DNA from: an uncultured Planctomycetota bacterium
GTDB taxonomy: Bacteria > Planctomycetota > Planctomycetia > Isosphaerales > Isosphaeraceae
Direction: 5' to 3'
DNA: 64,000 nucleotides
Assembly: GCA_963823665.1 (NCBI GenBank)
Contig: CAWGMQ010000006.1
Span: 256,001-320,000 of the forward strand
Shown here: piece after piece, positions 5,125 to 44,865 of the stretch
How positions within the stretch are numbered: the first letter of the stretch is position 1
Layout: every line of letters begins with the position of its first letter
Notes under the pieces: model-generated
Seen by the model: the letters and a program-made list of their open reading frames with translations, nothing else
Told to the model about the DNA's origin: nothing
The model's database searches: none
Made by a program: the position numbers and the translations under genes

Positions 5125-6096
5125 TCAGGACGTCGGTTGGCGGATCGGCCGCCTCGCGTGCCTGAGAATTCGTCGAGCGCTCACCAGCGCAATCGCGAGG
5201 CCGGCGAAGGCCAGCGTCGAGCACTCCGGGATCGCGGCTGGAGCCGGCGGCGGCGCCATATCCGACGGAGTCAAAATGTAATCGTGCGAATCCTGCCCCA
5301 CCGCAAGGATCTGGCCGAGATTATTGATCGCCAGCGCGCCGGTAAGAACGATCGGAGGGGCGCCGCTATTGAGCAAGAGGTTCAAGTTATACATTGTGCC
5401 ATTTTCGTAGATAAATGCGTTGCTGAGTTGAGAGCTGTTGGGTACGAGTGGGCTGCCGGCGATCAAAGACCAGCCGACAACCTGTCCCTGATTATTCAGG
5501 CCCAGGGCGGCGGCATTCGCTCCGCCCAGGGTTCCGAGCTCGGTAATGTGTCCGTTCTGGAACAGGAAGGCGTTGGGATGGCCGTTCACGTCGCTAGAGT
5601 GGAATCCCGCGACCTGCCCTGACGCGTTGATCGCCGTTGGCGTCGACGCGAAGTATGGAAACACCGTGAACTGCCCGTTTGAATAGAACCAGCCTGCCTC
5701 GGCACCGTAGTTCGCGCTACTGATGTTTTGATTGGAGATCCCGATTTCCTGACCGGCTGCATTACTCGCCAGAGCGTTACTCCAGGAATATCCCGGCAGC
5801 GATACCTGCTCGGGCAACGCGCCCGTCGGCGTGCTGGCGACGGGAAAAGTCTGCACCGTTCCAGCATCCGGGCCTGAAGTCGTGTACACAAAATTCAGTG
5901 ACGACGAGTACTGGCCGATCAGGTTCCCAGATGCATTGAAGCCCGTAACATTGAGCGGATTGAGAGCGGACAGGTCCGTGACGTTATACGTGACCGGTGA
6001 AATCGGGTCGGCTCGCGCTTGCGACGTGGCCAAACCAATGAAGAAGAGCAGCATCGCGCCATGGGTTCCCCTCGCAAGTGGCCGTGCACGCATCAT
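5125..6096 (-). CDS. PEP-CTERM-type surface protein with HAF extracellular repeats
   Basis: Signal ..[34 protein letters not shown] repeats; C-terminal IPECSTL + TM + Arg-rich tail. Confidence 0.8.
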
Positions 6097-6190
6097 TCCC
6101 CTCCTTGGGTTGGATCGTCTTGGCGAGAGAATTCGAAGGAACGAGCAGGAACGACGGCGCACAAGTCCGTGGTCACGACGCCCTGAAGGC

Positions 6191-7162
6191 TCACGAGTCG
6201 GATCTGGGCACGGACCAATTCCGCTTCCTTAACGCGGCGCGGAAGCCTAACGCGCCGATCGCCAGACCGACGAAGGCGAGCACCGAAGGCTCTGGCACGG
6301 CATCCGGCGGCGGAGGCGGCACGGTCGGCAAATTCGACGGAGTGAGCAGGTAGTCGTGCCCTCCGTTTCCACCGACCAGGATCTGACCGGCATTGTTGAT
6401 CGCAAACGCGCCCTGGAGATAAGGCGGAGTGTTTCCTGGAGCGATCAAATTATTCAGGTTATACATTATGCCATTTTCATAAACGAACGCAGTCGGTTGC
6501 CCACCGAACGGAGCGATGATGCCTGGAGGGGATGAAAGATTGGAAGAGCCCACGACAACCCCGTGATCGTTGATCCCCGAGATCTGGGTCTGAATTCCAC
6601 CGGGCAGCGTTCCAATGTCGGTCACCTGGCCATTGCTGTAGAGATACCCATGGGCATTTCCGCTGATGTCGTTGGCGTTGAAGACGACCTGGCCCACCGC
6701 GTTGATCTGCGGGTTATAGGGGTACTGCTGTGGAAATACGGTGAATTGACCGCCTGAATACTCCCACGCGTAGTAGACGCCCTGCTGTCCGTTACTGAGG
6801 GTCTGGCCGGCGAGCCCGGTAGCCTGGCCGGCCGCGTTCCCGCCGTACTGGGCAGTCCACGAGTATCCCGGTACATTGCCAGGGTTCGTGGGGTCGTTCC
6901 CATTCGCCGTAGTCGTCGGTGCAGTGGACGACAATTGCAGAGATCCCGCGTTTGAACCTGAGGTCGCAAATGTATAGTAGACGTTGTTCCCAGCGTACTG
7001 GCCGACAACGTTTCCGTTCGAATCGAAACCCGTCGCGATCAAGTGCCCCATATCAGTCACGTTGTAAGTGATTGGGTCGGCATGGGCTTGCGAAAGGACG
7101 GTGCCGGTCACGAACAGCAAGCCAGCGCATCGGTATGCAATCGTGAGTGGGCGAATCCGCAT
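6191..7162 (-). CDS. PEP-CTERM surface protein with HAF repeats (paralog of 5125-6096)
   Basis: Signal ..[26 protein letters not shown]-terminal [26 protein letters not shown]. Confidence 0.85.
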
Positions 7163-7269
7163 TTTACCCCTCCGTGGGTAGGAGATGCTCGACGGATGTA
7201 ATAGAATGAAAAAAGTACTCTCAGTTGCCCAAAGCGTCAATGCGTAGTTGTACGAGGATTTATTATCCA

Positions 7270-8850
7270 ATGCAGCCAGCTTCCCGCCTTCACAAGATGT
7301 TCATCATGTTCGCCGGTGCGCTCCTCCTGGTGGCGGGTGCTGCGGCTGCGCCGGCCGAAAAAATGTTTCCCGCTGAGCAGGCTGCCGCTCTCGACCGGAT
7401 CACGGCCGACTCGCTCAAAGGGCACCTCTCGTTCCTGGCCTCCGACCTGCTCGAGGGCCGGGATACGCCGTCGCGCGGGCTCGATCTTGCGGCCGAGTAC
7501 ATCGCCGCCCAGTTCCGCCGCGCGGGGCTGGAACCGATCGGTGACGACGGCTATTTCCAGACTGCCAACTGGGAGCTCGCCGAGACCGCGCCGGGGGGTT
7601 TTGCGTTCGAGCTCGGCAATGGAGAAAACCCGTCCATTCAGGTCGGGAAGGAGCTGGTGAGCTTGCAGCGCCTGCGCGGGTTCAATGTCCGGTCTGCCCC
7701 GGTCTTCAAGATCGACGCCGGCGACACAAAGGTGCTCGAGTCATTGACATCCCAGCAGGTGGAAGGCAAAGCCGTGCTGGCCGTGATTCCGAATGTGGGC
7801 TCCAGAGACAGGGCCGCAACCCGGTCCGTCACTGCGTTCATGGCGCGCCTGGCCGCTCTCAAGCCCGCGGTCGTGGTGAACCTGAGCCGGCTCCCGGGCG
7901 CGGCGACGGGGTTTGCCCCCGGCCGGGCGACCGATCCGGAAAACCCACGGAGGTCCGCGTTTTCCGCAAGCGAGCGCTCCGGACCACCGCTCTTGACCGT
8001 TCACGATCCCAAGGTCCTCGCCGTCTATGACTCGCTACCGCTTGGCCCGGCGAAGAAGCTCACGCTTTCGGTACGCCTCGACGAGCCGGTGAACCGCCCG
8101 GTGAAGGTGCGGAACGTCGTCGGCTTGCTGCGAGGATCGGATCCCGATCTGAAGAATACGTACGTACTCGTCACCGCCCATTATGATCACGTTGGAAACC
8201 ACGGCGCACCCGGTGAGAAAGGCGACCAGATTTATAACGGCGCCAACGACGACGGCAGCGGCACGGTCTCGGTGATCGAGATCGCAAGCGCGCTGGCCAC
8301 GCTCAAGAGCCGCCCGAAGCGCAGCATCCTTTTCATGACCTTTTTCGGCGAGGAGCACGGCCTTCTGGGCTCAAGGTATTACGGCCGGCACCCTCTGGTG
8401 CCGATCAGGGAAACGGTGGCCGACATCAATCTGGAGCAGGTGGGGCGAACCGACGATTCCGAGGGCCCGCGTGTCGGCGCCGCCGCGCTCACCGGCCACG
8501 GCTACTCGAACGTCTCCGACGTCTTCGCTGCCGCGGGCGCGGCCGAAGGGGTCAAGCTCGAAAAGCACCCGAGGTTCAGCGACTCGTACTTCGGCCGTAG
8601 CGATAACCAGGCGCTTGCCGACCTGGGAGTGCCGGCGCACACGCTGTGCGTGGCGTTCGTGTATCCTGACTACCACGGCGCCGGAGACCACTGGGAGAAG
8701 ATCGACTACCCCAACATGGCCAAGATCGATCGCATGGTCGCCCGCGGCCTGCTCCTGATCGCCGACGACCCCGTCGCCCCCAAGTGGAACGCATCAAACC
8801 CGAAAGCGGCGAGGTATCTGAAAGCCTGGAAGGCCATGCAGAGCCCTTGA
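7270..8850 (+). CDS. Secreted M28 family aminopeptidase
   Basis: LASDLLEGRDTPSRG, TAHYDH, NGANDDGSG, GEEHGLLGS, RSDN, DYHGAGD motifs; signal peptide. Confidence 0.9.
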   Translation: MQPASRLHKMFIMFAGALLLVAGAAAAPAEKMFPAEQAAALDRITADSLKGHLSFLASDLLEGRDTPSRGLDLAAEYIAAQFRRAGLEPIGDDGYFQTANWELAETAPGGFAFELGNGENPSIQVGKELVSLQRLRGFNVRSAPVFKIDAGDTKVLESLTSQQVEGKAVLAVIPNVGSRDRAATRSVTAFMARLAALKPAVVVNLSRLPGAATGFAPGRATDPENPRRSAFSASERSGPPLLTVHDPKVLAVYDSLPLGPAKKLTLSVRLDEPVNRPVKVRNVVGLLRGSDPDLKNTYVLVTAHYDHVGNHGAPGEKGDQIYNGANDDGSGTVSVIEIASALATLKSRPKRSILFMTFFGEEHGLLGSRYYGRHPLVPIRETVADINLEQVGRTDDSEGPRVGAAALTGHGYSNVSDVFAAAGAAEGVKLEKHPRFSDSYFGRSDNQALADLGVPAHTLCVAFVYPDYHGAGDHWEKIDYPNMAKIDRMVARGLLLIADDPVAPKWNASNPKAARYLKAWKAMQSP

Positions 8851-8947: not shown

Positions 8948-9388
8948 ATGGCTCGCCGACCTGCTGAGGATGTGACCGACACCGAGCTGGCGATCCTGCA
9001 TGTGATCTGGAACGAAGGCCGGGCCACGCGGCGGCAGATCACCGATGTGCTGTACCCGCAGGGCGGCGAGGCGCACTATGCGACGGTGCAGAACCTGCTG
9101 GGCCGGCTCGAGCGCAAGGGATTCGTCCGCCACACCCGGTCCGAGGGGGTGCTGATCTTCACGACGAGGGTCGGCCGAGACGAGCTGATTCGCCGGCGGC
9201 TGCAGGGCGTGGCCGACAAGCTCTGCGGCGGTGCGGTTGCGCCCTTGCTCATGAATCTGGTCCGGTCTCGCCCGCTCTCCCCGGGTGAGGTCGAAGAGCT
9301 GTACGAGTTTCTGCGTAAAGAGCGCGAGCGGGTGCCAGGGTCAAAGCCTCGTCGTGATCCAGCCAGAAAGGAGCCCCGCGGTGGATGA
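8948..9388 (+). CDS. BlaI/MecI/CopY family transcriptional repressor
   Basis: VTDTELAILHVIW..ATRRQITDVLY..YATVQNLLGRLERKGFV winged helix; overlaps the downstream M56 gene. Confidence 0.9.
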   Translation: MARRPAEDVTDTELAILHVIWNEGRATRRQITDVLYPQGGEAHYATVQNLLGRLERKGFVRHTRSEGVLIFTTRVGRDELIRRRLQGVADKLCGGAVAPLLMNLVRSRPLSPGEVEELYEFLRKERERVPGSKPRRDPARKEPRGG

Positions 9389-11555
9389 CCTGTTCCGGAT
9401 CGCCGTGAGCAACGCGGCGTGGGCCGCCGGGCTGGCGCTTGTCGCCGCGGCCGGGTCTCGCCTCTTTCGGCGCCGGCCGGCGCTCGCGCACACGCTCTGG
9501 CTCTTGGTGCTGCTCAAGCTGGTCACGCCTTCGGTCTTGAACGTGGCGCCGCCGTGGGGGAAAGTGCCGGTCATGGATGCGCGAGCCGGCGATCTGGCGA
9601 TCCATGTGGTTGTCCCGGCGGTGGAAATCACGTCATCCCGGTCGTCGGATGCCGGATCTCCGGAGAAGCGGGTACTCGCTCCGTCTCCGTTGCACGCGGC
9701 GTCAACGCCAACGGCGGGGACTTGGCCATGGCGGATCCTGATCGCTTTGGGCTGGCTGGCGGGTGCAGTCATCTGGTGGGCATGTGTTGTTCTGAGCATC
9801 CGGCGCTTTCGGAAATTGCTCCGCGTGTGCATCGCGGCTCCCGAAGCCCTGCAAGAGCGTGTCAAGCAAATTGCGGCGCGCATCGGGTTGGGCGCGCGCC
9901 GGCTTCCGCGTGTGATGATCATTCCAGCGCGGATTCCGCCGTTCGTCTGGGCTTCACTCACAGGCCGGCCCCGGCTTTTGTTGCCACACGAGCTCTGGGG
10001 CCGGCTTGATGAGTCTCAGCAGAACGCACTGCTCGCGCACGAGCTGGCCCACCTGAAGCGCGGCGATCACTGGGTGCGCTGGCTCGAGGCGATCGTGCTC
10101 GGGTTGTACTGGTGGGATCCGATCGCCTGGCTGGCCCGCCGGGAGCTCGAGCGCACGGAAGAGGAATCGTGTGACGCCTGGGTAGTCTGGTCGCAGCCGT
10201 CTGCTGCCGGTTCCTATGCTGAGGCTCTCGTGGCCACGGCGGCATTCTTGTCCGAGGTCCATCGTCCGCTGCCAATTGGTGGTAGCGGATTTCGAAGCAC
10301 GTCCGCAATCAAGAGGAGGTTGGAAATGCTCCTGTCTGACGCTGCCAAGCCGTCGATCGGCCGGGCTCGATCAATGAAGTTGCTGGTGCTCGCCGCTCTG
10401 TGCTTGCCGCTCCTGCCGGTGCCCGCGGGCGAGAATCGGAGTGTCCGGGCGGGCGAACCGACTGAACAATCGCAGGGCACCAAAGCCCAGGCAGCCGGAC
10501 AACGGGCCGTGGTTCCCGGTACGGTAGTCGGTGCGCCCATCGTGGGCGGACAGTTCGTTGTGATCCGGCCGGTTGTACGCCACGTTGGCGGTCAACTCGA
10601 ACTTGAGCCGTCGCCACTTCAACCAGCGCACCGCGTCGAGCTCAATTCCCCGATGAGTGGAACGCTGCAAAAAGCGCTTTGCAAACCAGGGCAGCAAGTC
10701 AAGAAAGGGGATGTGCTGTTCCAGTTTGACGCAAGGTCTGCCGAGCTCGAGCTGCAAAAAGCGGAGGCCGAGGTGATGCGGATGCAGGCTCGCTTGACCG
10801 GATTCGACCTGCAGCCCGGATCGAGACGGTCCGGCGAGGGACAAGCGCGGTTCGGCGAGGCGCAAGCAACCTTGCAAAGTGCAACGGCTGACCGAGATCT
10901 GATGAAGCTCAAGCTTGAGTCGACGCGGGTCAAAGCACCGTTTGACGGCGTGATCGCGCGCGTCGTCGGGTCCGAGGAGAGCTTCATCCAGGCAGGTGCG
11001 GCCCTGACAACGCTCAGGTCCGACGCGATGCTTGCTCTCGACGTCTACATTGAGGAACGCACCGCTCGCCGGTTCGACGCCCTCTTGCAGGACGGTAAGA
11101 ACGGCGCGGCCGACGTGGTTCGTATCGCTGTGAGAGACGAACGGGACTTTCCGCGCAAAGGCTTGATTGACTTCATTGATCGTGAAGTCCAGCCGCTGGG
11201 CCAGGTGCGACTGCGCGTGCTTGTCTCCAACGTCGATCGCTCACTCAGGCCAGGGCTACTGGCTCGAGTGCAGATTCAGGCGGGCGCGCCCGAGGATTCG
11301 ATCGTCGTGCCGGACTCGAGTCTCATCGAGAACAACGGCCGGCGATACGTATGCGTGCTGGCAGAAGACAACACGATCGTTCGCCGGTTTGTGGAAGCGG
11401 CCGAGCGAGTTGACGATTTGCGAATGATCGAACGCGGTTTGAGCGTGAACGACTGGGTGCTCGAAAGCAGAATCAATCCTGCGCTGATCGGCTCCAAGCT
11501 CTCCGAGCAGGCCATACTGCGCGTCGACGCCGCGGCGAAGCCGCCGATACCATGA
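9381..11555 (+). CDS. M56 (BlaR1-like) membrane metalloprotease fused to an RND periplasmic adaptor (MFP) domain
   Basis: GTG start overlapping blaI stop; TM helices, LAHELAHLKRGD (HExxH), EEESCD; C-terminal lipoyl/coiled-coil MFP motifs VKKGDVLFQFD, VKAPFDGVI, LRPGLLARV. Confidence 0.85.
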   Translation: MDDLFRIAVSNAAWAAGLALVAAAGSRLFRRRPALAHTLWLLVLLKLVTPSVLNVAPPWGKVPVMDARAGDLAIHVVVPAVEITSSRSSDAGSPEKRVLAPSPLHAASTPTAGTWPWRILIALGWLAGAVIWWACVVLSIRRFRKLLRVCIAAPEALQERVKQIAARIGLGARRLPRVMIIPARIPPFVWASLTGRPRLLLPHELWGRLDESQQNALLAHELAHLKRGDHWVRWLEAIVLGLYWWDPIAWLARRELERTEEESCDAWVVWSQPSAAGSYAEALVATAAFLSEVHRPLPIGGSGFRSTSAIKRRLEMLLSDAAKPSIGRARSMKLLVLAALCLPLLPVPAGENRSVRAGEPTEQSQGTKAQAAGQRAVVPGTVVGAPIVGGQFVVIRPVVRHVGGQLELEPSPLQPAHRVELNSPMSGTLQKALCKPGQQVKKGDVLFQFDARSAELELQKAEAEVMRMQARLTGFDLQPGSRRSGEGQARFGEAQATLQSATADRDLMKLKLESTRVKAPFDGVIARVVGSEESFIQAGAALTTLRSDAMLALDVYIEERTARRFDALLQDGKNGAADVVRIAVRDERDFPRKGLIDFIDREVQPLGQVRLRVLVSNVDRSLRPGLLARVQIQAGAPEDSIVVPDSSLIENNGRRYVCVLAEDNTIVRRFVEAAERVDDLRMIERGLSVNDWVLESRINPALIGSKLSEQAILRVDAAAKPPIP

Positions 11556-11570
11556 TCGCGCGCGCCACGC

Positions 11571-13439
11571 TCAGACCGCGTGCGACCAGCCGGGCGGCCA
11601 CACCGTTTCGCGTGGAGCGCTCGAGGCCGGATCATCGACGTCAGCCGGTTCGAGGAAAAGCCAGCACGGAACTCGCTCCGGCTCGTCGAGCCGGAGCAGC
11701 CAGTAACCGATGCCGGCGGTTCCCGAGAAAAGCGATGGGTTCGGTCCGCCGCCGGGAAAGCCGGTCGGCCAGTTGTCCTGTTCGGAATAACGATCGATCA
11801 AGGTTTGAGCGAGGTCGCGCGAGCGGTCGAGATATGAGCGATCATCGAGCGCATGGACAGCCGTCAACAGCACCGCACCCAGCCCGGCGAGCCCGTCGCG
11901 AATCGTCGCGTCAAATCGTGGAACGGCGATGCGTGCATCGATCGCGCCGAGCACCGCAGTGAGCGCCGTTCGCGCCTGCACGAGGTGGCGTTCCCTGGAT
12001 TCAGCGTCTCGCATTGCGGCGCGCAGCAGGAACATGGCCGCTTCACGCGCACGGCCAGGGCCGTTCCGGATCGGGTCGCTGCTTGTCCGCTGCGGGCCGC
12101 TTACCGGCAGGCGCGATCGAGCCATCGCCCCCTGCGCAGTGCGCCGGAACTCTTCGTGACCGGTCACGGCGTGAAGATGCGCAGGAAGAGCGCGATGCCG
12201 GCGGAGCCTTCGCGCAGCCCGGGCCCGAGCGCCGCCGCGACCACGCCGGTTGGGCTCTTGCGCTCCGACTCGCCCATGCGCACTCGGCCGATCCAGTTGC
12301 AATAGCGCCCGGTCGAGTCCCAGACGGCTTGCCGGCAGAGCGACTCGCCGATCCGGATCGTGGCATCTCTCGCGGAGATGGTGCGTCGGCTTGCGCTAAC
12401 GCGAGCATCGGAAAGCGTCGTGCCCCGCGCCGTCGCTTCACACGCGATCGGCAGTTGAAAATGATCGATCGAGCCAGCTTGCAGATAGGGAAATCGCGGG
12501 TCGAGACCTTCCGCTTTGTAGACTGCTGCGAATGTGGCGGCGCGAGCCGCGCGGTCGCGGTCGCCGCGCAGAAACGACCGCCAGAGGGCACGCGCGGACA
12601 GGTTGCATCGGTGGTCTCCGAAGCTCACCGGGCCGGATGGGCTCTCGGCCGCGCCCAATCCTCTCGCGATGGGCTTCGTGAAGAGCGGCACGCTCTCCCG
12701 CAGCCCGGACTCGACGGCCGCGTGAATGTGCGCGATCGCATCGCGGGCCCGCGCGTCGTAGCGCCGCGCAAGAAGATCAAGCCCGCATCGGCGCGCCGAA
12801 CGCATGCGGGTCCGCAAGTACCTTGAGGCAGAATGGCACGTCGTCCGCATTGAGCCGCTCGGTTGCCGCGGCGATGAATGGAACCGCGGCCTCGCTGGTC
12901 AAGTGCCAGTAGTACCGGATGAGCGGCGTGGAATCGTCTGGACCGCACTCGTCCAGCGCCTCGCCGTCGGCAAAATAAAAACCAGGAACGCGAATCCGCA
13001 GCTCCTTGCCGACCCAGACGAAACACGTCTGGCCCGGCTCGAGTTTTCCGCACGGAGTGTAAACCTCCTGCGGCGCGGCCCAGATTGTGAGACCATCCTT
13101 GCTGAGCGTGGGGTGCCCCTGCGCATCCACTTCGCGCACGACCCAGCCGCTATGCCACGTTCCGCGCCCGGTATTGGCCGCGTGCAAGGCACATAGCCGC
13201 TGCCGCGAAGTCGGCTCACCGGAGGGGAACGGCTCGCGAAGGCGGCTCGGTCGAATGTAGAGCACGCGATACAGGACATCCGAGAGCGCGAGCTCCCACG
13301 GCGGGGCCGCCTCGCCGGGAAAGTCGTCCGCGGCTGGCGTGGCGAGCTCGCGATGTTCGCCGAGAACCGTGAAGCTCGCGGGTGAATCGATTACCACCGC
13401 ATCAAGCACGCTCCATAGATCGGGATGCAGCTCGGTCAT
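11571..13439 (-). CDS. HopA1-like phosphoSer/Thr lyase (LanY-like) fused to a shortened, degenerate LanC-like domain; frameshifts near 12797, 12767 and 12183
   Basis: HopA1-type segments ANTGRGTWHSGW, PGFYFADG, IRYYWHL, PFCLKVL, RRADAG, PLFTKPIARGLGAAE, SFGDHRC; LanC-type segments IGESLCRQAVW..CNWIG, GSAGIALFL, PSLFSGTAGIGYWLLRL. Confidence 0.75.
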
Positions 13440-14559
13440 CAGTGCGCCGCGCCCCGTGGATGCCGAATAGCCGCGCGCGGGCGAGCTCCGGTTGTGAGAG
13501 CACGTTCGCGCTCAGTTGAAGCATGATCACCGATCGCGGATCGAGGACACTCAGCTCGCTTGAGATTTCGTACGCCGACTGGATCAATCGCACCGCCGAG
13601 AGCTTCACGGCCCGATCGAGCAAGAGCCGCAGTTCGATTTGATCTGCTTCCACCGCGACCTGATAGCCTTTCCACAGCGACCGGCTCAGAGCCTGGACGG
13701 TCTCGAACGGGAACTTCGCCAGCGCGGCGCGCTCGTCAATCGACAGATCGGCCGTCATCGGTATCGAGACGACCCAGGATTTCACGAAGGCCATCAAGGC
13801 GCCGGCCAAGTCCCACGCGGGGTCGCCGAGCTGGACCATCTCCCAGTCGATGAGCCGGATTTCCCAGGGCCCTTCGGTGCCACTGTTCTTGACGAGGACG
13901 TTGTCCGGCCGGAAGTCTCCGTGAATAACCGTCTCGGCGCCGCAACCCTCCAGCAGCGAATCAAGCTCCCGAGCGCAGCCCTCCTCCGTTTGAAGCACGC
14001 GGATCAGCTCGGCATTGGCCGGGCTGAGGATCGAGAGCACCTGGGGGGTGGGCCGATGGAGCGCCATCGCCCAGGGCGCCGCGCGTGAAAGCCAGGCCAG
14101 GCGCGGGCATTGCGCGAGCTCCGGCGTGCGGAAGGTCCGATGAACGGTGGCCAGGGCGCCTCCGATCGCGCCGGCGACTGCGATCGCCGATCGTTGGTCG
14201 GCATTTGGCTTGAGGAATGCGGATAGGGTCACCGCTTCACTCAATAGCCCAAGCGCGAGCACGGGGCCCTCGCCGTCATAAGCGATCAGCCGAGGTGCGA
14301 TCGCGGCCACGCGGGCGGCTGCGGGCTCGGACTGGCAGTATTGATAGAACGAAGCTTCGGCGCCGAGCGTTTCCCGGCTGCGCGCCTCCGCCTCGCCGGG
14401 TCGTTTGATCAAGAGCCCTGCTCCGCCGGGCCCCTCGATTAACAGGTTGGCGTTTCGTCTCGCGGCGTGTCGTATCGTGAGCGACCCGCCGATGATCCAG
14501 TCGGGATCGATCAGTCGCCGCGCGAGCAAGTAAGGCGCCGCATCGTCGAGAGAGAGCAT
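13402..14559 (-). CDS. Aminoglycoside-phosphotransferase-fold kinase (LanK-like)
   Basis: RRNAN, LLIKR (catalytic Lys), IHGDFRPDNVLV, LIDWEMVQLGDPAWDLA; true stop probably the TGA overlapping the downstream ATG near 13439. Confidence 0.82.
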   Translation of the reverse strand: MLSLDDAAPYLLARRLIDPDWIIGGSLTIRHAARRNANLLIEGPGGAGLLIKRPGEAEARSRETLGAEASFYQYCQSEPAAARVAAIAPRLIAYDGEGPVLALGLLSEAVTLSAFLKPNADQRSAIAVAGAIGGALATVHRTFRTPELAQCPRLAWLSRAAPWAMALHRPTPQVLSILSPANAELIRVLQTEEGCARELDSLLEGCGAETVIHGDFRPDNVLVKNSGTEGPWEIRLIDWEMVQLGDPAWDLAGALMAFVKSWVVSIPMTADLSIDERAALAKFPFETVQALSRSLWKGYQVAVEADQIELRLLLDRAVKLSAVRLIQSAYEISSELSVLDPRSVIMLQLSANVLSQPELARARLFGIHGARRTDDRAASRSMERA

Positions 14560-14662
14560 CGCGCGATCGCCTCAGCGAACGGTGTGAGAGCTCGATTGAT
14601 CGGCAAATAAGACAACCGAATGGCCGCGGCCGGCGGCCGGCGCGGGGCTTTTCCCGATTGAT

Positions 14663-15163
14663 CTACTCGGGCGGCTTGGGCCGCCGCGCCGCACGGTGAA
14701 GGTGGATGGGCTCCGTCACGACGCCGTGTGGCGGCGGAGGTGGAGGCGGAGTCTTTTCGACTACTGCCGGGGCCGAAGCCGATTCGATCGACCGTGCCAG
14801 GAATGATGCGACCAGGTGCCCCTTCAAGAATGACGCGGCCGTACTCGAGAGGGTCGTATGAACCACGAGGTGCGGCTGCGCCGCGGCGACGATGCCGACA
14901 TTCACCGGCTCGGTGGTATCTTCGCCGATCTTGGGCCAGATGTGCCGGATATCTTTGGTCTGGAGCTCGTAATAGGATTGAAAATCATGGTGGAGGTAGA
15001 GCCGGATATTTCCATCAATACTCGAGTGACCGGGGTAGCCGGTCAATGTAACCAGATGCTCGTGCTGATCTGGGTCTTCGTGGAGATTCGCCGCCAGCGG
15101 ATGCTCGAAGATGTCTTCGCCATCGGGGGTCTGCCCGAGATGGTGAACGTCTTTTTTCGCCAT
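14663..15163 (-). CDS. Putative RiPP precursor/substrate with a large structured leader; His-rich, poly-Pro C-terminus
   Basis: GGAGG RBS; first gene of the kinase/lyase/LanC run; DP..LTGYPGHS..GNIRLYL..YYE..DI..FLKG pattern recalls proteins preceding APH-HopA1-LanC genes. Confidence 0.6.
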   Translation of the reverse strand: MAKKDVHHLGQTPDGEDIFEHPLAANLHEDPDQHEHLVTLTGYPGHSSIDGNIRLYLHHDFQSYYELQTKDIRHIWPKIGEDTTEPVNVGIVAAAQPHLVVHTTLSSTAASFLKGHLVASFLARSIESASAPAVVEKTPPPPPPPHGVVTEPIHLHRAARRPKPPE

Positions 15164-37897: not shown

Positions 37898-38908
37898 ATG
37901 AAGCATCCGGAGTCGAAATCAGACTACAGGATGGTGCTGGATCCGTTGCTCGAAGGAAAGGTTGTTCCCTTCATCGGGGCGGGCGTCAACCTGTGCGGAA
38001 GGCCGCGCGACCCGGATGACGAGACGAAATTTGTTCCGTGGGAGGGTAAGTATATCCCGAGCGGCTGGGAGCTCACGGAGTACCTGGTCGAAACGTACAA
38101 CTATCCCAGGGACGAGCCACGTGATCTGTTGCGCGTGTCGCAGTACGTGGCTGTCAAGAACGGTACCGGGCCGCTTTATGAAAGGTTGCATGACGTGCTG
38201 GTGAAGGGAGACTTTCCAATCACGGCGGTGCATCAGTTCCTGGCGCGCTTACCTGCCGCGAGTAGTGCGGCGAGAAACAAGAGGCGCGACCCCAAGAAGG
38301 TGTATCCTCTGATCATCACGACCAATTATGACGACGTGATGGAGCGCGCGTTCGACGAGGTGGGCGAGCCTTATGATCTGGTGTTTTACGCGGCGCAAGG
38401 GAACGAGAAGGAGAGGTTCTTGCACCGCGCACCAGGTGAGGAACCTCGTCCGATCCTCATAGCGAACAACTATCAAATCGAAGTCGACGGCCGAGCGTGC
38501 ATTCTGCTGGACCAGCGTCCGGTGATCCTCAAGATCCACGGGGCGGTGGACCGGCGGTCCCCGGACCGGGACAGTTACGTGATCACCGAGGATGACTACA
38601 TCGACTACTTGACGCTGCCCCCTCTGACTACCTTGCTGCCCGTTCCCTTACCCGCGCGGTTGGCTCACTGCCATTTCCTGTTCCTGGGCTACAGCCTGGC
38701 GGACTGGAACATGCGCGCGTTTTTCCGCCGGATCTGGAAAGACGCAAAGCTCAGCTACAGGTCGTGGGCAGTGGAAATCCTCAACCGGAAGATCGATCAG
38801 ATGTTCTGGAGAGAGCGGAACGTGGACGTGATCGTCTCGAGTCTGGAGGATTATTTTGCCGATCTGACGGAGCTTCTCGAGTCCCCTGCGGCGGGTCCAA
38901 CTCCATGA
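37898..38908 (+). CDS. Stand-alone SIR2-like (SIR2_2) protein, predicted NADase effector
   Basis: VPFIGAGVN, IITTNYDD, ILKIHG, YVITEDDY, FLFLGYSLADWN motifs. Confidence 0.88.
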   Translation: MKHPESKSDYRMVLDPLLEGKVVPFIGAGVNLCGRPRDPDDETKFVPWEGKYIPSGWELTEYLVETYNYPRDEPRDLLRVSQYVAVKNGTGPLYERLHDVLVKGDFPITAVHQFLARLPAASSAARNKRRDPKKVYPLIITTNYDDVMERAFDEVGEPYDLVFYAAQGNEKERFLHRAPGEEPRPILIANNYQIEVDGRACILLDQRPVILKIHGAVDRRSPDRDSYVITEDDYIDYLTLPPLTTLLPVPLPARLAHCHFLFLGYSLADWNMRAFFRRIWKDAKLSYRSWAVEILNRKIDQMFWRERNVDVIVSSLEDYFADLTELLESPAAGPTP

Positions 38909-41900
38909 CGGACACGGGAAGTGCTGGCACCGTTGAGAGGCCCTTCGTCGGGCTGGCGCCATTCGCCGAGGGTGACGCGCGCTACTTCTTCGGCCGTGAC
39001 ACGGATCGGGCAGTGATCACGTCAAACCTGGTTGCCTCGCGGTTGACTGTACTCTACGGGCCCAGCGGGTGCGGCAAGAGCTCGTTGCTCGACGCGGGTG
39101 TCGTGAACCAGGTCAACAACATGGTCGTGCCGCGGCAGACTGCCGAAATAGGCAAGCCCGAGTTTGTGGTCGTGAGCTTTCACGAGTGGCGCGACCGCCC
39201 GCGGGATGCGCTGCTCGAGCGATTGCGGGCGCGCATCGAAGCCGTGGTGGGTCGAGCCATCGAGCCGCCGGGGCAAGACTTGCTGGCCGATGTTCTCGCT
39301 TCATGGTCGAGTGAGGTCAGCGGGGCGCTTTTGCTCGTGCTGGACCAGTTCGAGGATTACTTTCTTTATCACGGGCGGAAGGTGGTGGAGGGGAAGTTCG
39401 CGCACGAGCTCTCTGGCGCGATCAACCGCAGCGGTCTGCGGGCAAACTTCCTGATTTCGATTCGCGAAGACTCTCTGGCACAGCTCGACGCCTTCCAGGG
39501 GCACGTACAGAATCTGCTATCGAACACCCTTCGCCTCGACCGGCTCGACCAGAAGCGGGGCCGTGAGACGATCGTCGGGCCGATCGAGCGGTACAACGAG
39601 CTGCGCGGGAACGGCGCCCCGAAGATCACGATCGAGCCGGAGCTGGTTAACGCCGTGCTGCACGCGGTGAAGGCGGGGTCGATCAACCTCGATACCACGG
39701 GCCGCGGACGTGTGGACCAGCGTGATGAGTCGGGTGAAGATGCCGGCTCGATCGAGACAGCCTACCTGCAACTCGTCATGAGGCGGCTGTGGGAGGCCGA
39801 GATCGCCGCCGAATCACACGTGCTGCGAATGGCGACGTTCGATGCCTTGGGCCGTGCGCAACGGATCGTCGGAACGCATCTTGATACGGTGATGAAGTCC
39901 TTCGACACCGAGCGGCGCGGCATTGCTGCGGAGCTTTTTCGCTACCTGGTGACGCCGACGGGTACCAAGATCGCGCTCTCCTTGAACGACCTGGCGGGCC
40001 TGACCGGGCTGTCGGGAGAGGCCGTCGCTCCGGTGCTGGAGCAGCTTGGCTCGCCGCGTGTGAGAGTGCTGCGCGAGGTCAAGGGACCGATCGACGATCA
40101 GGCGACGCACCGGCACGAGATCTACCATGATGTCCTGGCGGGTGTGGTCCTCGACTGGAGGCGGAGGTATTCGACCGAGCGGGCCAAAAAAAGAGTGCGC
40201 CGGAACATTCTGCTTGTCAGCTCGGGCGTGCTGGTGGCATTGATCCTGCTCTTCAGCGTCCTCGAGGCAAGATACAAGGAACGAATTGCCGAGGAGAGAG
40301 CGACACTCGACGCGAAGGAGCGGGAGCTGACGGCCGTCGCGAACACGAGAATTGCCAAGGCCGAGTCCGAGGCCGCACAATCGAGCGTGCTCGCGACGGG
40401 TGCCGCGCTCGTCCTCGGTGACGACCCCGATCTGAGTCTGGCGCTGGCGCTGGCCGCAATCGGGTCTCACAGGTCTCCGACTGCGGAACGCGCCTTGCGG
40501 CAGGCGCTGGCAGCGGCTCGCGTGCGCCAGGTCGTGGGCAAGGCCGGCGGAAGCAAGCTGGTGTCGGTCGCGTACAGCCCGGATGGCCGGCAATTCGCCA
40601 CGGCGGGGGAGGATGGCAAGGCCGAGCTCTGGGACACGGCCTCCGGCGCTCCGGTGGGAAGAATCGACAACGTCGCGATCAGAGGCGCGAGCCTCGCAGC
40701 GCTTCAGTTTGTCGGCGAGGGCCAATACTTCGCCACCGTTGACGTCGGCGGGAACGTGGCTGTCTTCGACCTCTCTTCGCCGGGTATGAAGCTCGAAAGA
40801 GTCATCGGGCCTCCGAAGAGCACGAGGATGCTTGCGCTTTCATTCGCCGGCGCCGCAGCCCGAGTTGCCGTAGCGACTGATGACAAGGCCATCCGTTGCT
40901 GGGAACTTCCGTCGGGAAAGCCGCTTGTCGACAAGATTCACCCGAGCGATTCGGTAAAGGCGCTCATGCTCAGTCCGGATGGCGAGAAGCTCGCGATCGG
41001 ACTGGAAGCAGCCGCCGCGAATGGACCTGGGCACCCGGGCGGCGCGCGGGTTGGCACCGGCGACGGCGCTGGCGTGGGCGACTCGCACACGGGCGATCGA
41101 TCGACTGTGCGGATCGTCGAGCTTTCCGATCCCGATGCAGGGGCGAGCCTGAGCGAGACGGCGACAGTCACCGCCCTGGCCTTCGACCCAGACGGCAAGC
41201 GACTCGCGGTGGGCACACGCGTGGAGCAGTCGGGCGTGACGGCCCTCTCCCCCTTGCGGCTCTGGAGTTTGCAGAACAAGGCATGGCGCCACGGAGCGAA
41301 CATCCAGGGCCGGTTTGAACCCGCGGTCGTCGAATTCAACCCAACGGGGACGCTCCTGGCCACCGGCGGCAAGGATGGGTTCGCACAACTTTGGGACGCG
41401 AACCTCGGCTACCCTCGGGGCACGCTGAACTGTCAGTCTCCGATCACGCAGGTGGCATTCAGCCCGGACGGTGAACGAGTTCTCCTCGCGTCCGAGGATT
41501 TGTCGGTACGGATCTGGCCCGTCGGCACGAACGGCTCGCTGCTGGTGCTTCGTGGGCACAGGAACGATGTTCTGGATGCGGTGTTCGCGCCGGACGGTCA
41601 GACGATCGCGACCGCCAGCGCAGACGGAACTGCGCGAATATGGAATGCGTCTGCTGAATCTCCATCAATCGCACTCCCCGCCCCGGCAGCGCCGTGGACT
41701 AACGCCGTCTTCACCCCCGACAGCAAGCGCGTGATCCTGGCGGGAGCCGACAATCAATTGCGGATGGTGGAAACGACCACGGGCCAGGTCGTCGGCGAGC
41801 CGCACCCGCACCCCGCGCCGGTGATCGCCATGGACCTGAGCACAGATGGGTCGAGGCTGGCCACGGCGGGTGGTGACAGGATTGCACGGGTGTGGAATCT

Positions 41901-44865
41901 AGCCGCCTGGCAAACTCCGATCGAGTTTTCCGGGCACACAGCCGCCCTTGCGGCCGTGGCATTTTCCCCGGACGGGCGCCGGCTCGCGACGGCATCGTAT
42001 GATCAGACGGCCCGCGTCTATGACCTCGCGTCGGGCCGAGCGCTTGCGGCGCTCGAGGGTCACTCCGCGGCTGTCACCGGCCTGGCGTTTCGGCACGACA
42101 GCGCGCGGCTCGCGACAACGGGGCTCGACAACACGGTGCGCCTGTGGAACACGGCAACGAATCGGGAGATATGGAATCAAGCGGGCTACACGGCCCACCT
42201 GAGCAGTGAAGTGTTTGGCCCCGACGGCCTCGTGATCACGCCTAACATGGGGATTGGAGCGAGCCGGGAAACGAAGACCGACATGGCTCAAGTGATCGAC
42301 GTGGCTACCGGCAGCACCCGCAGACTTCGGGGCCACGCGGGGACCGTCGCGGCCGCAGCCTTCAGCCCGGATGGCAGGACGGTGGCCAGCTCCGGGTTCG
42401 ACAGGACGGTCCGGTTCTGGGAAGCAGCGAGCGGCCAGCCTGCCGGCCAGCCTCTTTACGGACACACCGCCCGTGTCGGCAACGTTGTCTTCAGCCCCAA
42501 GGGGACGTACCTCGCGTCGGAAGCGTTCGATGCTACAGGGATCATCTGGGATGCCCGGCGCAAAGTCGAGTTGTTTCGTCTTTCCGGTTTGACAAGCGCG
42601 GTTTCGATCCTGGCGTTTGATCCCGACGAGAAGGTTCTCGCAACGGCGGACCGCAAATTCAGCGTGAATCTCTGGGATGTCGCGCAGGGCCAGATCGTGC
42701 GAATGCTGGAAGGCCACACCGGGGCGATCAGTGCGTTCGCCTTCAGCCCCGACGGCCGTTTCGCCGCTACGGCGAGCAACGACGGCACGACCCGAATCTG
42801 GAATGTGAGCACTGGCGGACTGGTTAATTTATTCAAGCTCCAGAATCGAGTAGCTGTTACACCGATCCAGTTCGCCGTCGACGCCAAGGGAGAGCTCATT
42901 TTCACGTATGCTGATGAGGCGGCCCATTTCTGGACAGTGCAGGGCGGCTCGAAGGACCCACGGGTCGTTCCAGTAGGAGCGCATGGTACCGCGCTGGCTT
43001 TCGACAAGGAGGGAAAGAAACTGGCCATCGGTTGCTCGGACGGGTCAGTGCATCTGGCAGATACAACCACTATGGGAATCACTTCTCGACAGCCGAGCTG
43101 GTACATGTCGACTGAGAACCTGCCTGTTTTCAGTCCGGACGCCGGACGGCTCGTCACGGCCGACCTGAACGGCCTGGCACACGTCTGGGACACCAAGACC
43201 GGGTCTGTGATCCACGATTTGCCGCATGAGGGCCAGCGCGTGTTAGCCGCCACGTTCAGTTCCGACGGCCGCCTGCTCGCCACGGCGACGGATCGTGCCG
43301 TCGTGCGGCTCTGGAATACGGCGATGGCGAATGCCCCACTCTTCCGCCATGTCGTCAAATATCCACAGGTGCTCCTCGCCTTCAATCCTGCCGGCACGCT
43401 TCTGGCCACCGGTAGTGGATCGGAAAACACGGTGCTTCTGTTGAACTGCGACAAAGGCGTCGAGGCCGCCAGGCTCACGGCCAGCGGAAGTGGTTTGAGT
43501 AAGATCGTCTTCAGCGCAGACGGTCAACAAATCGCGGCGAGCTGCCGCGACAATGCGACGCACGTATGGGATGCCCAGACTTTCAAGGCCGGGCGGCCGC
43601 TGCTGTGCGATGCGAGCGTCAATCAGCTTTCCTTCAGCCCCGACGGGACCAAGCTGGCGACGGCAGGAGGATTGAAGGCACGCATCTGGGACCTGAAGAC
43701 ACGGACGCCGAGGGATCTGCCTGTCCAGATGCCGGGCGTCGTCCGCTGTTTGAAATTCAGCCCGAGCGGAGAGCAGCTTGCCTCCGCGGGCGACGATCCG
43801 GTGGTCCGGGTCTGGGACGCGCAGACACTCAAGCAAGTCGCCGACCTGCCGGGCCTTCGCTATCCTGTGAATGAAGTTGATTTCAGTCCCGACAGCAAGT
43901 GCGTCGTGGCGGCATCCGGCGATGTTTCGGTTCGGAGCTGGGAAGTCGCGACGGCCAAGCTGGTCGCCGAGATGCGCGTCGGTGCGGCGACTCCGGCCGT
44001 TGCATACACCAAAGATGGGGCATTCATCACGACCGTCGACTACGCGAACGGGGCGAAAGTCTGGGATGCGAAGTCTGGCAAGCTCCTTTCCGCGCTCGGA
44101 AATATCGCCCACTCGCCCGTCAAGAGCCTGGCATTCAATCGTGACGGCAAGTCAATCATCGCCGTTCTGGGCGACGGCACGGCATGGGTCCGGGACGCAG
44201 ATACGTTGCGGTTCAAAGACGTTGTCGGCTCAGCCGAAGCGTTCACCAACGTACTTCAGATCGATCGCGACGGCGCCCGCGTGGTGATTACCCACGGCGA
44301 GGCAGGCTGGAACGATTCCGATCAGAAGCCGTTTGCTCTGATCGTGCATGAGGACAACACGCCCGCCGAGCACGTGCGCGATCGGACCACCTCCGCGGTG
44401 ATCGAAGCAGGGTTCAGCCGCAGCGGCAAGCTCGCGTTCACGCTCAGGCGTGACGGTACAGCGACCGTGTGGGAAACTTCCTCGAGGAAGTCGCTAGTCA
44501 GGACGGGCGATTCGTCGTTTCGGCCGGGCGTGACCGCGTTCCCGGATGTGGACATCAGCCCGAATAACAAGTTCCTGGCGATCACCAGTTTGTCGGGAAA
44601 GATCAGCGTGTGGGATCTCGATTCCGGCAAAATCCTGACCACATATACAGGGCCATCGGCCAACATCCAGTGGATCGGCTTCAGTCCCGACAGCGCAATC
44701 TTGATGGCGCTTTACGACGACGGAATTGGACGTCTTTTTGGCGCCGACATGTTGGGTCCCATCGACGACGTTGCCAGGAAGGCGCAGGCCATCCTTCGCA
44801 AGGTGGGGCGGGAATTGACGGAATCCGAGCTACAGAAGTACCTGAAACAATCTCTGATCGATTGA
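38905..44865 (+). CDS. nSTAND1-type STAND NTPase - TM helix - very long WD40 repeat array (~1986 aa)
   Basis: ATGA overlap with SIR2 stop; PFVGLAPF.E.D..YFFGRD, YGPSGCGKSSLL, LLLVLDQFEDYF, LQLVMRRLW, EIYHDVL; TM ILLVSSGVLVALILLFSVL; roughly 25-30 WD40 repeats (GH..V..AFSPDG..LATAS.D.T.R.W). Confidence 0.92.
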   Translation: MTDTGSAGTVERPFVGLAPFAEGDARYFFGRDTDRAVITSNLVASRLTVLYGPSGCGKSSLLDAGVVNQVNNMVVPRQTAEIGKPEFVVVSFHEWRDRPRDALLERLRARIEAVVGRAIEPPGQDLLADVLASWSSEVSGALLLVLDQFEDYFLYHGRKVVEGKFAHELSGAINRSGLRANFLISIREDSLAQLDAFQGHVQNLLSNTLRLDRLDQKRGRETIVGPIERYNELRGNGAPKITIEPELVNAVLHAVKAGSINLDTTGRGRVDQRDESGEDAGSIETAYLQLVMRRLWEAEIAAESHVLRMATFDALGRAQRIVGTHLDTVMKSFDTERRGIAAELFRYLVTPTGTKIALSLNDLAGLTGLSGEAVAPVLEQLGSPRVRVLREVKGPIDDQATHRHEIYHDVLAGVVLDWRRRYSTERAKKRVRRNILLVSSGVLVALILLFSVLEARYKERIAEERATLDAKERELTAVANTRIAKAESEAAQSSVLATGAALVLGDDPDLSLALALAAIGSHRSPTAERALRQALAAARVRQVVGKAGGSKLVSVAYSPDGRQFATAGEDGKAELWDTASGAPVGRIDNVAIRGASLAALQFVGEGQYFATVDVGGNVAVFDLSSPGMKLERVIGPPKSTRMLALSFAGAAARVAVATDDKAIRCWELPSGKPLVDKIHPSDSVKALMLSPDGEKLAIGLEAAAANGPGHPGGARVGTGDGAGVGDSHTGDRSTVRIVELSDPDAGASLSETATVTALAFDPDGKRLAVGTRVEQSGVTALSPLRLWSLQNKAWRHGANIQGRFEPAVVEFNPTGTLLATGGKDGFAQLWDANLGYPRGTLNCQSPITQVAFSPDGERVLLASEDLSVRIWPVGTNGSLLVLRGHRNDVLDAVFAPDGQTIATASADGTARIWNASAESPSIALPAPAAPWTNAVFTPDSKRVILAGADNQLRMVETTTGQVVGEPHPHPAPVIAMDLSTDGSRLATAGGDRIARVWNLAAWQTPIEFSGHTAALAAVAFSPDGRRLATASYDQTARVYDLASGRALAALEGHSAAVTGLAFRHDSARLATTGLDNTVRLWNTATNREIWNQAGYTAHLSSEVFGPDGLVITPNMGIGASRETKTDMAQVIDVATGSTRRLRGHAGTVAAAAFSPDGRTVASSGFDRTVRFWEAASGQPAGQPLYGHTARVGNVVFSPKGTYLASEAFDATGIIWDARRKVELFRLSGLTSAVSILAFDPDEKVLATADRKFSVNLWDVAQGQIVRMLEGHTGAISAFAFSPDGRFAATASNDGTTRIWNVSTGGLVNLFKLQNRVAVTPIQFAVDAKGELIFTYADEAAHFWTVQGGSKDPRVVPVGAHGTALAFDKEGKKLAIGCSDGSVHLADTTTMGITSRQPSWYMSTENLPVFSPDAGRLVTADLNGLAHVWDTKTGSVIHDLPHEGQRVLAATFSSDGRLLATATDRAVVRLWNTAMANAPLFRHVVKYPQVLLAFNPAGTLLATGSGSENTVLLLNCDKGVEAARLTASGSGLSKIVFSADGQQIAASCRDNATHVWDAQTFKAGRPLLCDASVNQLSFSPDGTKLATAGGLKARIWDLKTRTPRDLPVQMPGVVRCLKFSPSGEQLASAGDDPVVRVWDAQTLKQVADLPGLRYPVNEVDFSPDSKCVVAASGDVSVRSWEVATAKLVAEMRVGAATPAVAYTKDGAFITTVDYANGAKVWDAKSGKLLSALGNIAHSPVKSLAFNRDGKSIIAVLGDGTAWVRDADTLRFKDVVGSAEAFTNVLQIDRDGARVVITHGEAGWNDSDQKPFALIVHEDNTPAEHVRDRTTSAVIEAGFSRSGKLAFTLRRDGTATVWETSSRKSLVRTGDSSFRPGVTAFPDVDISPNNKFLAITSLSGKISVWDLDSGKILTTYTGPSANIQWIGFSPDSAILMALYDDGIGRLFGADMLGPIDDVARKAQAILRKVGRELTESELQKYLKQSLID

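What the first reader, a model, noticed from the sequence alone, without database searches (positions are those of the whole stretch)
11571..15163. Class V lanthipeptide-like RiPP cluster in a planctomycete (precursor - LanK-like kinase - HopA1/LanY lyase fused to LanC-like domain)
Seen: three co-directional genes, with kinase and lyase overlapping. Known: an APH-fold kinase plus a HopA1-like lyase form the split Ser/Thr dehydratase of class V lanthipeptides and thioamitides, characterised mostly in Actinomycetota. Unusual here: the planctomycete host, the lyase-LanC fusion, a 166-aa protein-sized substrate, and no LanD decarboxylase, methyltransferase or dedicated transporter in the cluster.
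Basis: partly seen in the sequence, partly recalled or inferred. Interest (0 to 1): 0.8.

Follow-up and report, generated by a model that had tools for sequence, protein, structure and literature searches.

The report
Lanthipeptide machinery that lost its sulfur
This planctomycete gene trio descends from sulfur-ring peptide (lanthipeptide) machinery, but its small protein has no cysteine and its ring-closing domain lacks the zinc site, so it likely only dehydrates a threonine beside a proline run, probably as the output of the receptor-like kinase encoded just upstream.

Summary
The trio is real: a 166-aa protein, an APH-fold kinase and a HopA1-LanC fusion. The fusion has three single-base breaks, probably assembly errors.

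It cannot make a lanthipeptide. The small protein has no Cys. The LanC part lacks about 180 residues, all three zinc ligands and the catalytic-His motif. Eight intact homologues (605-647 aa) share this deletion and form one clade with the window copy. Where a partner can be paired, it has a Cys-free tail; Thr-x7-His-Gly over a proline run holds in 28 of 29 such tails. Sister loci keep a full zinc LanC and Cys-bearing tails.

The small protein is a folded beta-barrel plus an FLKG helix predicted to dock on the kinase (score 0.81, best control 0.00).

HopA1-LanC fusions and planctomycete hosts were already noted in print, and this scan saw the full-LanC form on other DNA. I found no description of the sulfur-free offshoot or the receptor link.

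Verdict: new variant, interest 0.6.

The parts
14663..15163 (-). Small substrate (precursor) protein, 166 aa, no Cys, no Pfam family; single copy in the genome
   Evidence: (0 of 89 family members match Pfam); dN/dS 0.22 vs G001
14858..15058 (-). Predicted folded beta-barrel (residues about 36-102), weakly SH3/Sm/Hfq-like
   Evidence: AlphaFold2 pLDDT 90-97 over residues 31-100; best Z only 3.0-3.4; no Foldseek hit at E<=0.001
14777..14848 (-). Leader-like helix, residues 106-129, with the family motif (F/Y)LxGxI (here FLKGHL); predicted kinase-docking site
   Evidence: L113 and G115 near-invariant or invariant in 89 rows; interface
14723..14752 (-). Tail motif T138-P7-H146-G147
   Evidence: T138 and H146 14 of 14; T-x7-H spacing in 28 of 29 Cys-free homologues
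13402..14559 (-). APH-fold LanK-like kinase (K52, E68, H213-G-D215, N220, D238-W-E intact); true 3' end probably near 13440
   Evidence: PF01636 1e-17; LxmK NF038156 68 bits, far below its 315 cut-off
12400..13439 (-). HopA1/LanY lyase domain; Arg, Lys and Arg at CaoY-like spacing; Phe at the CaoY Tyr236 position; breaks near 12798 and 12765
   Evidence: catalytic residues from PMC9486802, mapped by spacing
11571..12399 (-). Mini-LanC: about 180 residues deleted, GxxHG and WCxG segments missing, CHG replaced by RDG; break near 12182
   Evidence: 8 helices in the model of the G001 orthologue versus 14 in LanC (PMC9889658)
15326..20010 (-). Receptor-like Ser/Thr kinase - nSTAND1 NTPase - transmembrane helix - HEAT - FGE-sulfatase-like domain, split into two ORFs by a slip near 17030; ends 163 bp upstream of the small protein
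   Evidence: intact 1501-aa homologue in L053

Best explanation
The trio is a cysteine-free, cyclase-gutted offshoot of LanK/LanY/LanC (class Vb-type) machinery: the kinase is predicted to grip the small protein's FLKG helix and likely phosphorylates Thr138 (perhaps also nearby Ser), and the HopA1 domain would eliminate the phosphate to leave dehydrobutyrine, with no thioether ring. Shown from sequence: gene order, intact kinase motifs, lyase Arg/Lys/Arg, no Cys, no zinc site, and a deletion shared by a whole clade. Predicted: kinase docking. Inferred: phosphorylation, elimination, the target residue, and a structural, non-catalytic role for the mini-LanC. The trio probably works as the output of the upstream receptor-like kinase. 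In relatives that kinase often follows an ECF sigma factor, so the simplest link is signal, kinase, ECF sigma, operon expression. The window's breaks are probably assembly errors (about 70%).
For: All 15 small-protein matches in 121 genomes of the order lie at trio loci. Complex model: score 0.81, best of 3 controls 0.00; the mark is reached by 116 of 157 solved and 2 of 215 mismatched pairs; contact agreement at least 49%, partner pLDDT at least 64. Residues 106-129 sit on the kinase C-lobe, and residues 141 and 143-147 are among the interface residues, as are kinase M241 and Q243 beside the DWE motif. CaoK binds its leader in a C-lobe pocket in the published model (PMC9486802). Eight intact mini fusions share one deletion breakpoint and lack the motifs, while 33 of 35 full-length fusions (740-849 aa) keep WCxG and 32 of 35 keep the second CHG. 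The mini clade has support 100 and sits among full-LanC forms whose tails have polyPro plus Cys (L050a; P0170 paired with P0017). Of 129 family representatives with the motif, 123 have Cys in the tail; of the 6 without, 5 are the polyPro type and 1 is a 13-aa stub. dN/dS is below 0.45 in every segment and the segments contain no internal stops. Receptor: 21 of 22 precursor-bearing loci, 17 nSTAND-FGE and 4 of another kinase type, WD40 by Pfam in 2. Trio-linked FGE domains form two clades (support 99) that exclude 17 unlinked paralogues of this genome. Kinase and lyase trees split by the same receptor groups. An ECF sigma lies upstream in 11 of 21 (4 by Pfam, 7 by eye).
Against: No activity was measured. 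The lyase has Phe at the Tyr236-equivalent position in all minis, though also in 6 of the full-length forms aligned; elimination may be weakened. dN/dS of the enzyme segments (0.18-0.43) exceeds the flanking controls (0.15-0.16). Three breaks in 1.9 kb is denser than the background of 4 of 18 receptor paralogues with a frame change, and no contig bridged a break, so a young pseudogene is possible. The complex pass may echo likeness to class V complexes. The window and G001 copies have an M13 peptidase, not an ECF sigma, upstream of the receptor. This genome has at least 150 Ser/Thr kinases, and all neighbourhood data come from one family, so the loci are not independent. One full-LanC locus (L050b) has no Cys in the tail frame printed.
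Confidence: 0.6

Rival explanations
1. His has replaced Cys: the mini-LanC, possibly as a dimer, adds His146 to Dhb138 and makes a histidinobutyrine crosslink within or between molecules.
For: T-x7-H spacing is kept in 28 of 29 tails although spacer letters vary (G, V, Q, A, T). The two nearest full-LanC relatives with a proline-run tail read S-x7-C (L050a; P0017). The mini-LanC is kept in 8 intact proteins with conserved blocks. His-to-Dhb addition by a zinc-free cyclase is known (noursin, PMC10206099).
Against: In noursin the link is Dhb8-His11 (i+3), needs an intact cyclase and is not spontaneous. Seven prolines would hold the two residues far apart (general knowledge). The mini domain lacks about 6 of 14 helices. 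P0017 can equally be aligned on its own His (Cys simply lost). Two examples of S-x7-C could be chance.
Confidence: 0.12
2. The system is a decaying relic or a phosphorylation-only switch: the kinase marks the Thr, the lyase-cyclase is weakened or dead, and this genome's copy is a true pseudogene.
For: Three breaks in the fusion, denser than background. Tyr-to-Phe in the lyase. Raised dN/dS. Long stem branches to the window/G001 pair.
Against: Eight intact mini fusions at 55-84% identity keep Arg/Lys/Arg. All breaks are single-base deletions with no nonsense codons. Neighbouring genes here and in G001 are also broken, as are 11 of 25 HopA1-LanC genes in related assemblies.
Confidence: 0.18
3. 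The modified tail is released and is the ligand of the upstream receptor's outer HEAT-FGE domain, forming a peptide-hormone-like feedback loop.
For: Receptor and trio are co-inherited, including paralogous pairs within G001 and G475. A hydrophobic helix separates the NTPase from the FGE half in the window and 6 relatives. An M13 peptidase lies upstream in this genus.
Against: No signal peptide is evident by eye, and no exporter or conserved protease was seen at these loci. An unrelated WD40 receptor serves some loci. Co-inheritance follows from physical linkage alone.
Confidence: 0.12
4. It is an ordinary class V(b) lanthipeptide cluster making thioether rings.
For: Sister loci with full zinc LanC and Cys-bearing tails fit this well.
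Against: The window's substrate has no Cys, and no frameshift hides one: close homologues end the same way. The zinc ligands and catalytic-His motif are absent. The genome's only LANC_like match is this gene, and it has one precursor match.
Confidence: 0.03

Closest known systems
Class Vb lanthipeptide system (LanK + LanY + LanC; mSmoA, Pei et al. 2022, known to me only through passages of PMC11186320)
   Same: Stand-alone APH kinase, HopA1-type lyase and a LanC-derived domain; no LanD.
   Different: Lyase and LanC fused; LanC deleted and without zinc site; substrate without Cys, with a folded barrel; receptor-like kinase upstream.
HopA1-LanC fusion clusters, families 11/20 and 22 of Eyles et al. 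2021 (PMC8153245, passages and supplement search)
   Same: Kinase plus HopA1-LanC fusion, proposed there as an uncharacterised synthetase; family 11 peptides carry FLQG/FLKG.
   Different: Their short-peptide table has no RLYL, RLYA or YYEI hit, so the barrel precursor seems absent there; family 11 cores shown are Cys-rich.
Class Va dehydratases LxmK/LxmY and CaoK/CaoY (PDB 9dk1-3; PMC9486802, part 2 and passages)
   Same: Lyase fold (TM 0.74-0.76 on target), Arg/Lys/Arg at like spacing, leader helix modelled on the kinase C-lobe.
   Different: Kinase far below the LxmK cut-off (68 vs 315 bits); Phe for Tyr236; no LanD/LanX, no AviCys motif.
Noursin, LanKC-Hbt (PMC10206099, abstract, section 13, passages)
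   Same: A conserved Thr and His pair and a zinc-free cyclase-type domain.
   Different: Noursin uses a class III enzyme, i+3 spacing and a Cys-based labionin; here spacing is i+8 over prolines and the domain is truncated.
ECF sigma factors regulated by Ser/Thr kinases (PMC7826278, passages)
   Same: ECF-kinase gene pairs head 11 of 21 receptor-linked loci.
   Different: A RiPP-type trio as downstream cargo was not found in my searches; the window's own locus lacks the ECF.

Membership tests
Class V lanthipeptides (Va, Vb) | Stand-alone LanK kinase with catalytic motifs | tested here: met
   PF01636; K52, E68, H213, D215, N220, D238 conserved; below the LxmK equivalog cut-off
Class V lanthipeptides (Va, Vb) | LanY/HopA1 lyase with catalytic Arg, Lys, Arg | tested here: met
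   PF17914; LxmY fold; R175/K206/R216 in the G001 orthologue, mapped by spacing; Tyr236 position is Phe; window copy broken
Class V lanthipeptides (Va, Vb) | Core with Cys to form (methyl)lanthionine | tested here: not met
   0 Cys in 166 aa; 0 tail Cys in 29 of 29 close homologues
Class Va (lanthidins) | LanD/LanX and C-terminal (S/T)x4C for AviCys | tested here: not met
   No such Pfam match among the neighbours scanned; no C-terminal Cys
Class Vb / zinc LanC cyclase | Cys, Cys, His zinc ligands and catalytic His (NisC C284, C330, H331, H212; PMC9889658) | tested here: not met
   WCxG and GxxHG segments deleted; CHG is RDG. Met in most sister full-length fusions
Class Vb / zinc LanC cyclase | Complete 14-helix toroid | tested here: not met
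   About 180 residues missing; 8 core helices in the model
RiPP (leader-directed modification) | Leader bound by the modifying enzyme | tested here: inconclusive
   Model supports binding (0.81 vs 0.00) but does not show it
RiPP (leader-directed modification) | Modification and release of a core | not testable with these tools
   Needs mass spectrometry; no conserved protease or exporter seen at the loci
Thioamitides | YcaO/TfuA and LanD in the cluster | tested here: not met
   None among the neighbouring ORFs scanned; the rest of the genome was not searched
LanKC-Hbt (histidinobutyrine) | Enzyme-catalysed His addition to Dhb | not testable with these tools
   Conserved Thr/His present; spacing and enzyme differ
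Type III effector HopA1 | Stand-alone secreted effector rather than a kinase-paired biosynthetic lyase | tested here: not met
   Fused to LanC and paired with an APH kinase; LxmY matches better (E 1e-17 range) than the Pseudomonas effector structures (E 1e-5 range); secretion system not searched
Sm/Hfq or SH3 barrel (precursor domain) | Significant fold match | tested here: inconclusive
   Z 3.0-3.2 to several Hfq chains, within background

The most novel reading that the evidence does not exclude
A lanthipeptide lineage has swapped sulfur for histidine: a half-barrel LanC staples His to dehydrobutyrine across a fixed proline spacer, or crosslinks neighbouring molecules, and the product is the signal or effector of a dedicated eukaryote-like receptor kinase. 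That would be a peptide-modification circuit wired into planctomycete receptor-kinase signalling.
Probability: 0.12. Interest if true: 0.88.

Novelty: new variant of a known kind. Interest (0 to 1): 0.6.

Why it matters
It shows, with near relatives on either side, how a ring-forming pathway can lose the substrate's Cys and the cyclase's active site together while keeping kinase, lyase and a fixed Thr-x7-His motif. That points to a non-lanthionine product from lanthipeptide enzymes. The full-LanC sisters give a ready test of the HopA1-LanC synthetase proposed in 2021; I found no characterisation of it in my searches. The link to receptor-like Ser/Thr kinases suggests these modified proteins serve signalling rather than antibiosis, and it offers a concrete candidate output for a few of the very many planctomycete receptor kinases. 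The folded-barrel precursor family (679 matches among 50%-identity representatives, a few of them spurious; no Pfam) is too long for short-peptide mining.

Tried and rejected
- A hidden Cys-rich tail in another frame: rejected, since close homologues share the same C-terminus. One short-read variant (P0257) shifts near the end.
- A cyclase or second precursor elsewhere in the genome: none found.
- Reads to settle the breaks: four soil runs held small near-identical pieces, none bridging a break. No RNA holder was listed.
- Fold searches for the barrel gave only background-level matches. Atlas hits at 0.86-0.90 to small proteins auto-named 'pyrophosphatase Ppa' are leads only.
- Promoter and terminator scan matched shuffled levels.
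- A phylum-wide sample found the precursor in 2 of 401 genomes, this one included, so neighbourhood evidence is limited to one family.
- Pattern scans returned 1 genome locus and 4 metagenome loci. Two of the latter (L017, L018) gave no tblastn match to my queries and were dropped. G533 (short contig) was not fetched.
- The careful FGE tree did not finish; the quick tree is used. In the lyase tree group A has support of only 3.
- I had recalled noursin's link as i+7; the paper says Dhb8-His11, which weakened the His-crosslink idea.
- Pei et al. 2022 could not be read. Supplementary figures S28-S30 of PMC8153245 (families 11/20/22) were not seen and may bear on novelty.
- Eight earlier scan notes on free HopA1 plus kinase-LanC concern a different layout.
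Full report
Observation. Three minus-strand genes lie at the stated place: a 166-aa ORF (15163-14663), a 385-aa APH kinase (14559-13402) and a HopA1-LanC gene (13439-11571) that reads in three listed pieces. The same-genus genome G001 has the orthologue in one 610-aa frame. Alignment to it places single-base gaps in the window near 12798, 12765 and 12182, with further probable slips near 13452 (kinase end) and 17030 (upstream gene). The breaks are probably assembly errors: all are one-base losses, there are no nonsense codons, dN/dS is 0.18-0.43, and 11 of 25 related HopA1-LanC genes are also split. Against that, only 4 of 18 receptor paralogues in this genome show a frame change and no contig bridged a break. 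The host is a planctomycete, most likely Isosphaerales (names).

Enzymes. The kinase keeps its catalytic motifs but scores 68 bits against the LxmK cut-off of 315. A model of the intact G001 fusion (pLDDT 84) matches LxmY best (E 4e-17). It has Arg175, Lys206 and Arg216 at nearly the spacing of CaoY Arg187, Lys219 and Arg229 (PMC9486802 part 2). The Tyr236 position is Phe in all mini forms and in 6 full-length forms.

The LanC part is a mini domain. Among 90 homologues, 35 are full-length fusions of 740-849 aa; 33 keep WCxG and 32 keep the second CHG. Eight are 605-647 aa (one of them the C-terminal 610 aa of P0162) and lack the GxxHG and WCxG segments, with CHG changed to RNG, RDG, RAG, SEG or CNG. 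All eight share the breakpoint, and the window has the same form. These motifs carry the zinc ligands and catalytic His of LanC (PMC9889658, passages; the mapping of motif to residue is my own knowledge). The minis form one clade (support 100, including one truncated relative), nested among full-LanC forms. The genome has no other LANC_like match.

Small protein. It has no Pfam family (0 of 89 members). The profile search gave 679 matches, and one named member is from Blastocatellia. AlphaFold2 gives a confident beta-rich domain, two helices and a disordered tail; fold matches are at background level. Of the 150 listed representatives, 129 have the (F/Y)LxGxI motif and 123 of those have Cys in the tail. 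The window's subfamily has none: 29 of 29 tails are Cys-free and 28 of 29 read Thr-x7-His-Gly over prolines (these include close cluster members, so they are not independent). Where pairing is possible, Cys-free tails go with mini-LanC: window and G001 on DNA, and P0012/P0168 and P0260/P0163 by equal contig length. G001's second copy 16 kb away has a Cys-rich tail and a full zinc LanC. Of the 20 full-LanC loci with a precursor, 19 have tail Cys; L050b does not in the frame printed. All 15 matches in 121 genomes of the order lie at trio loci. The kinase-small protein model scored 0.81 against a best control of 0.00 (mark reached by 116 of 157 solved and 2 of 215 mismatched pairs; contact agreement at least 49%; partner pLDDT at least 64). 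The FLKG helix sits on the C-lobe, and the Pro-His-Gly segment is also in the interface. This supports binding but may reflect likeness to class V complexes.

Surroundings. HopA1-LanC matches occur in 23 of 121 genomes of the family. I examined 26 loci from 22 of them; 22 loci have the barrel precursor. In 17 of these the gene directly upstream, on the same strand, is a Ser/Thr kinase-nSTAND1-membrane helix-HEAT-FGE protein. In 4 it is another Ser/Thr kinase (WD40 by Pfam in 2, by eye in 1, unchecked in 1). One has none. A metagenome contig with the Cys-free tail also has the FGE gene upstream; another with a different tail does not (L016). Trio-linked FGE domains form two clades (99) that hold none of 17 unlinked paralogues from this genome but one tandem unlinked copy from a relative (quick tree). 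Kinase and lyase trees separate the same three receptor groups. An ECF sigma gene precedes the receptor in 11 of 21 loci, but not in the window or G001's orthologous copy, where an M13 peptidase sits. ECF activation by Ser/Thr kinases is known (PMC7826278, passages). Caveats: kin are not independent, and this genome has at least 150 kinases and 87 ECF matches.

Mechanism. Most likely (0.6) the kinase binds the helix and phosphorylates Thr138, the lyase eliminates phosphate, and the product is a protein or peptide bearing dehydrobutyrine next to a proline run and a His/Arg-rich end, with no ring. The mini-LanC would be structural. Rivals are decay or phosphorylation only (0.18), a His crosslink (0.12), the tail as receptor ligand (0.12, partly compatible with the best reading) and an ordinary lanthipeptide (0.03). 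The His crosslink is prompted by the fixed spacing and by S-x7-C in two sisters. It is weakened by noursin's i+3 link, which needs an intact enzyme.

Known and new. HopA1-LanC fusions were proposed as an uncharacterised synthetase (PMC8153245, passages). Planctomycete kinase/HopA1 pairs were noted (PMC7794033, passages). LanK/LanY/LanC defines class Vb (PMC11186320, passages). Earlier scan notes saw the large-precursor, full-LanC form elsewhere; a word search for the Cys-free, truncated form returned nothing. Ten literature searches (listings, plus the passages named) showed no description of the Cys-free mini-LanC clade, the barrel precursor or the receptor link. The library lacks most subscription papers, including Pei et al. 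2022.

Verdict. It works like a class V dehydratase but is not a lanthipeptide cluster. It is a new variant of a known kind, interest 0.6.

Noticed in passing
P0177, P0201 (full-length fusions); P0235, P0239, P0242 (stand-alone LanC): Full-length LanC domains that have also lost zinc ligands, apparently separate from the mini clade; their substrates are unknown.
   Followed up: no
P0036, P0059, P0064, P0072: Giant members of the barrel-precursor family (446-518 aa, 29-39 Cys in the tail, repeated cores); P0059 is named from Blastocatellia.
   Followed up: no
L069:5360-7605: Kinase plus HopA1-LanC with a different repeat precursor (TIFPPC units) and an S8 peptidase directly upstream.
   Followed up: partly
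L054, L055, L064: HopA1-LanC loci with no barrel precursor found; L054 also lacks the APH kinase; L054 and L055 lie near an ECF plus kinase pair (TPR by Pfam in L054).
   Followed up: partly
L057:3643-5173: About 1.5 kb interrupts the HopA1-LanC gene, possibly a mobile element.
   Followed up: no
   Followed up: no
window 5125-7270: Two tandem related proteins with a proline linker before a PEP-CTERM-like end (weak Pfam match in one).
   Followed up: partly
window 8948-11555: BlaI-type repressor and an M56 peptidase fused to a HlyD-like domain, converging on the trio; G001 has two M56 copies there.
   Followed up: partly
window 38764-44865: A 2033-aa ORF with an nSTAND1 match.
   Followed up: no
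small-protein residues 1-125: Atlas neighbours are 93-132-aa proteins, some auto-named 'inorganic pyrophosphatase Ppa' (mostly Spirochaetota); they may be stand-alone versions of the barrel.
   Followed up: no
G000 whole genome: 16.5 Mb assembly with at least 150 Ser/Thr kinases, 87 ECF matches and 37 nSTAND1 matches.
   Followed up: partly
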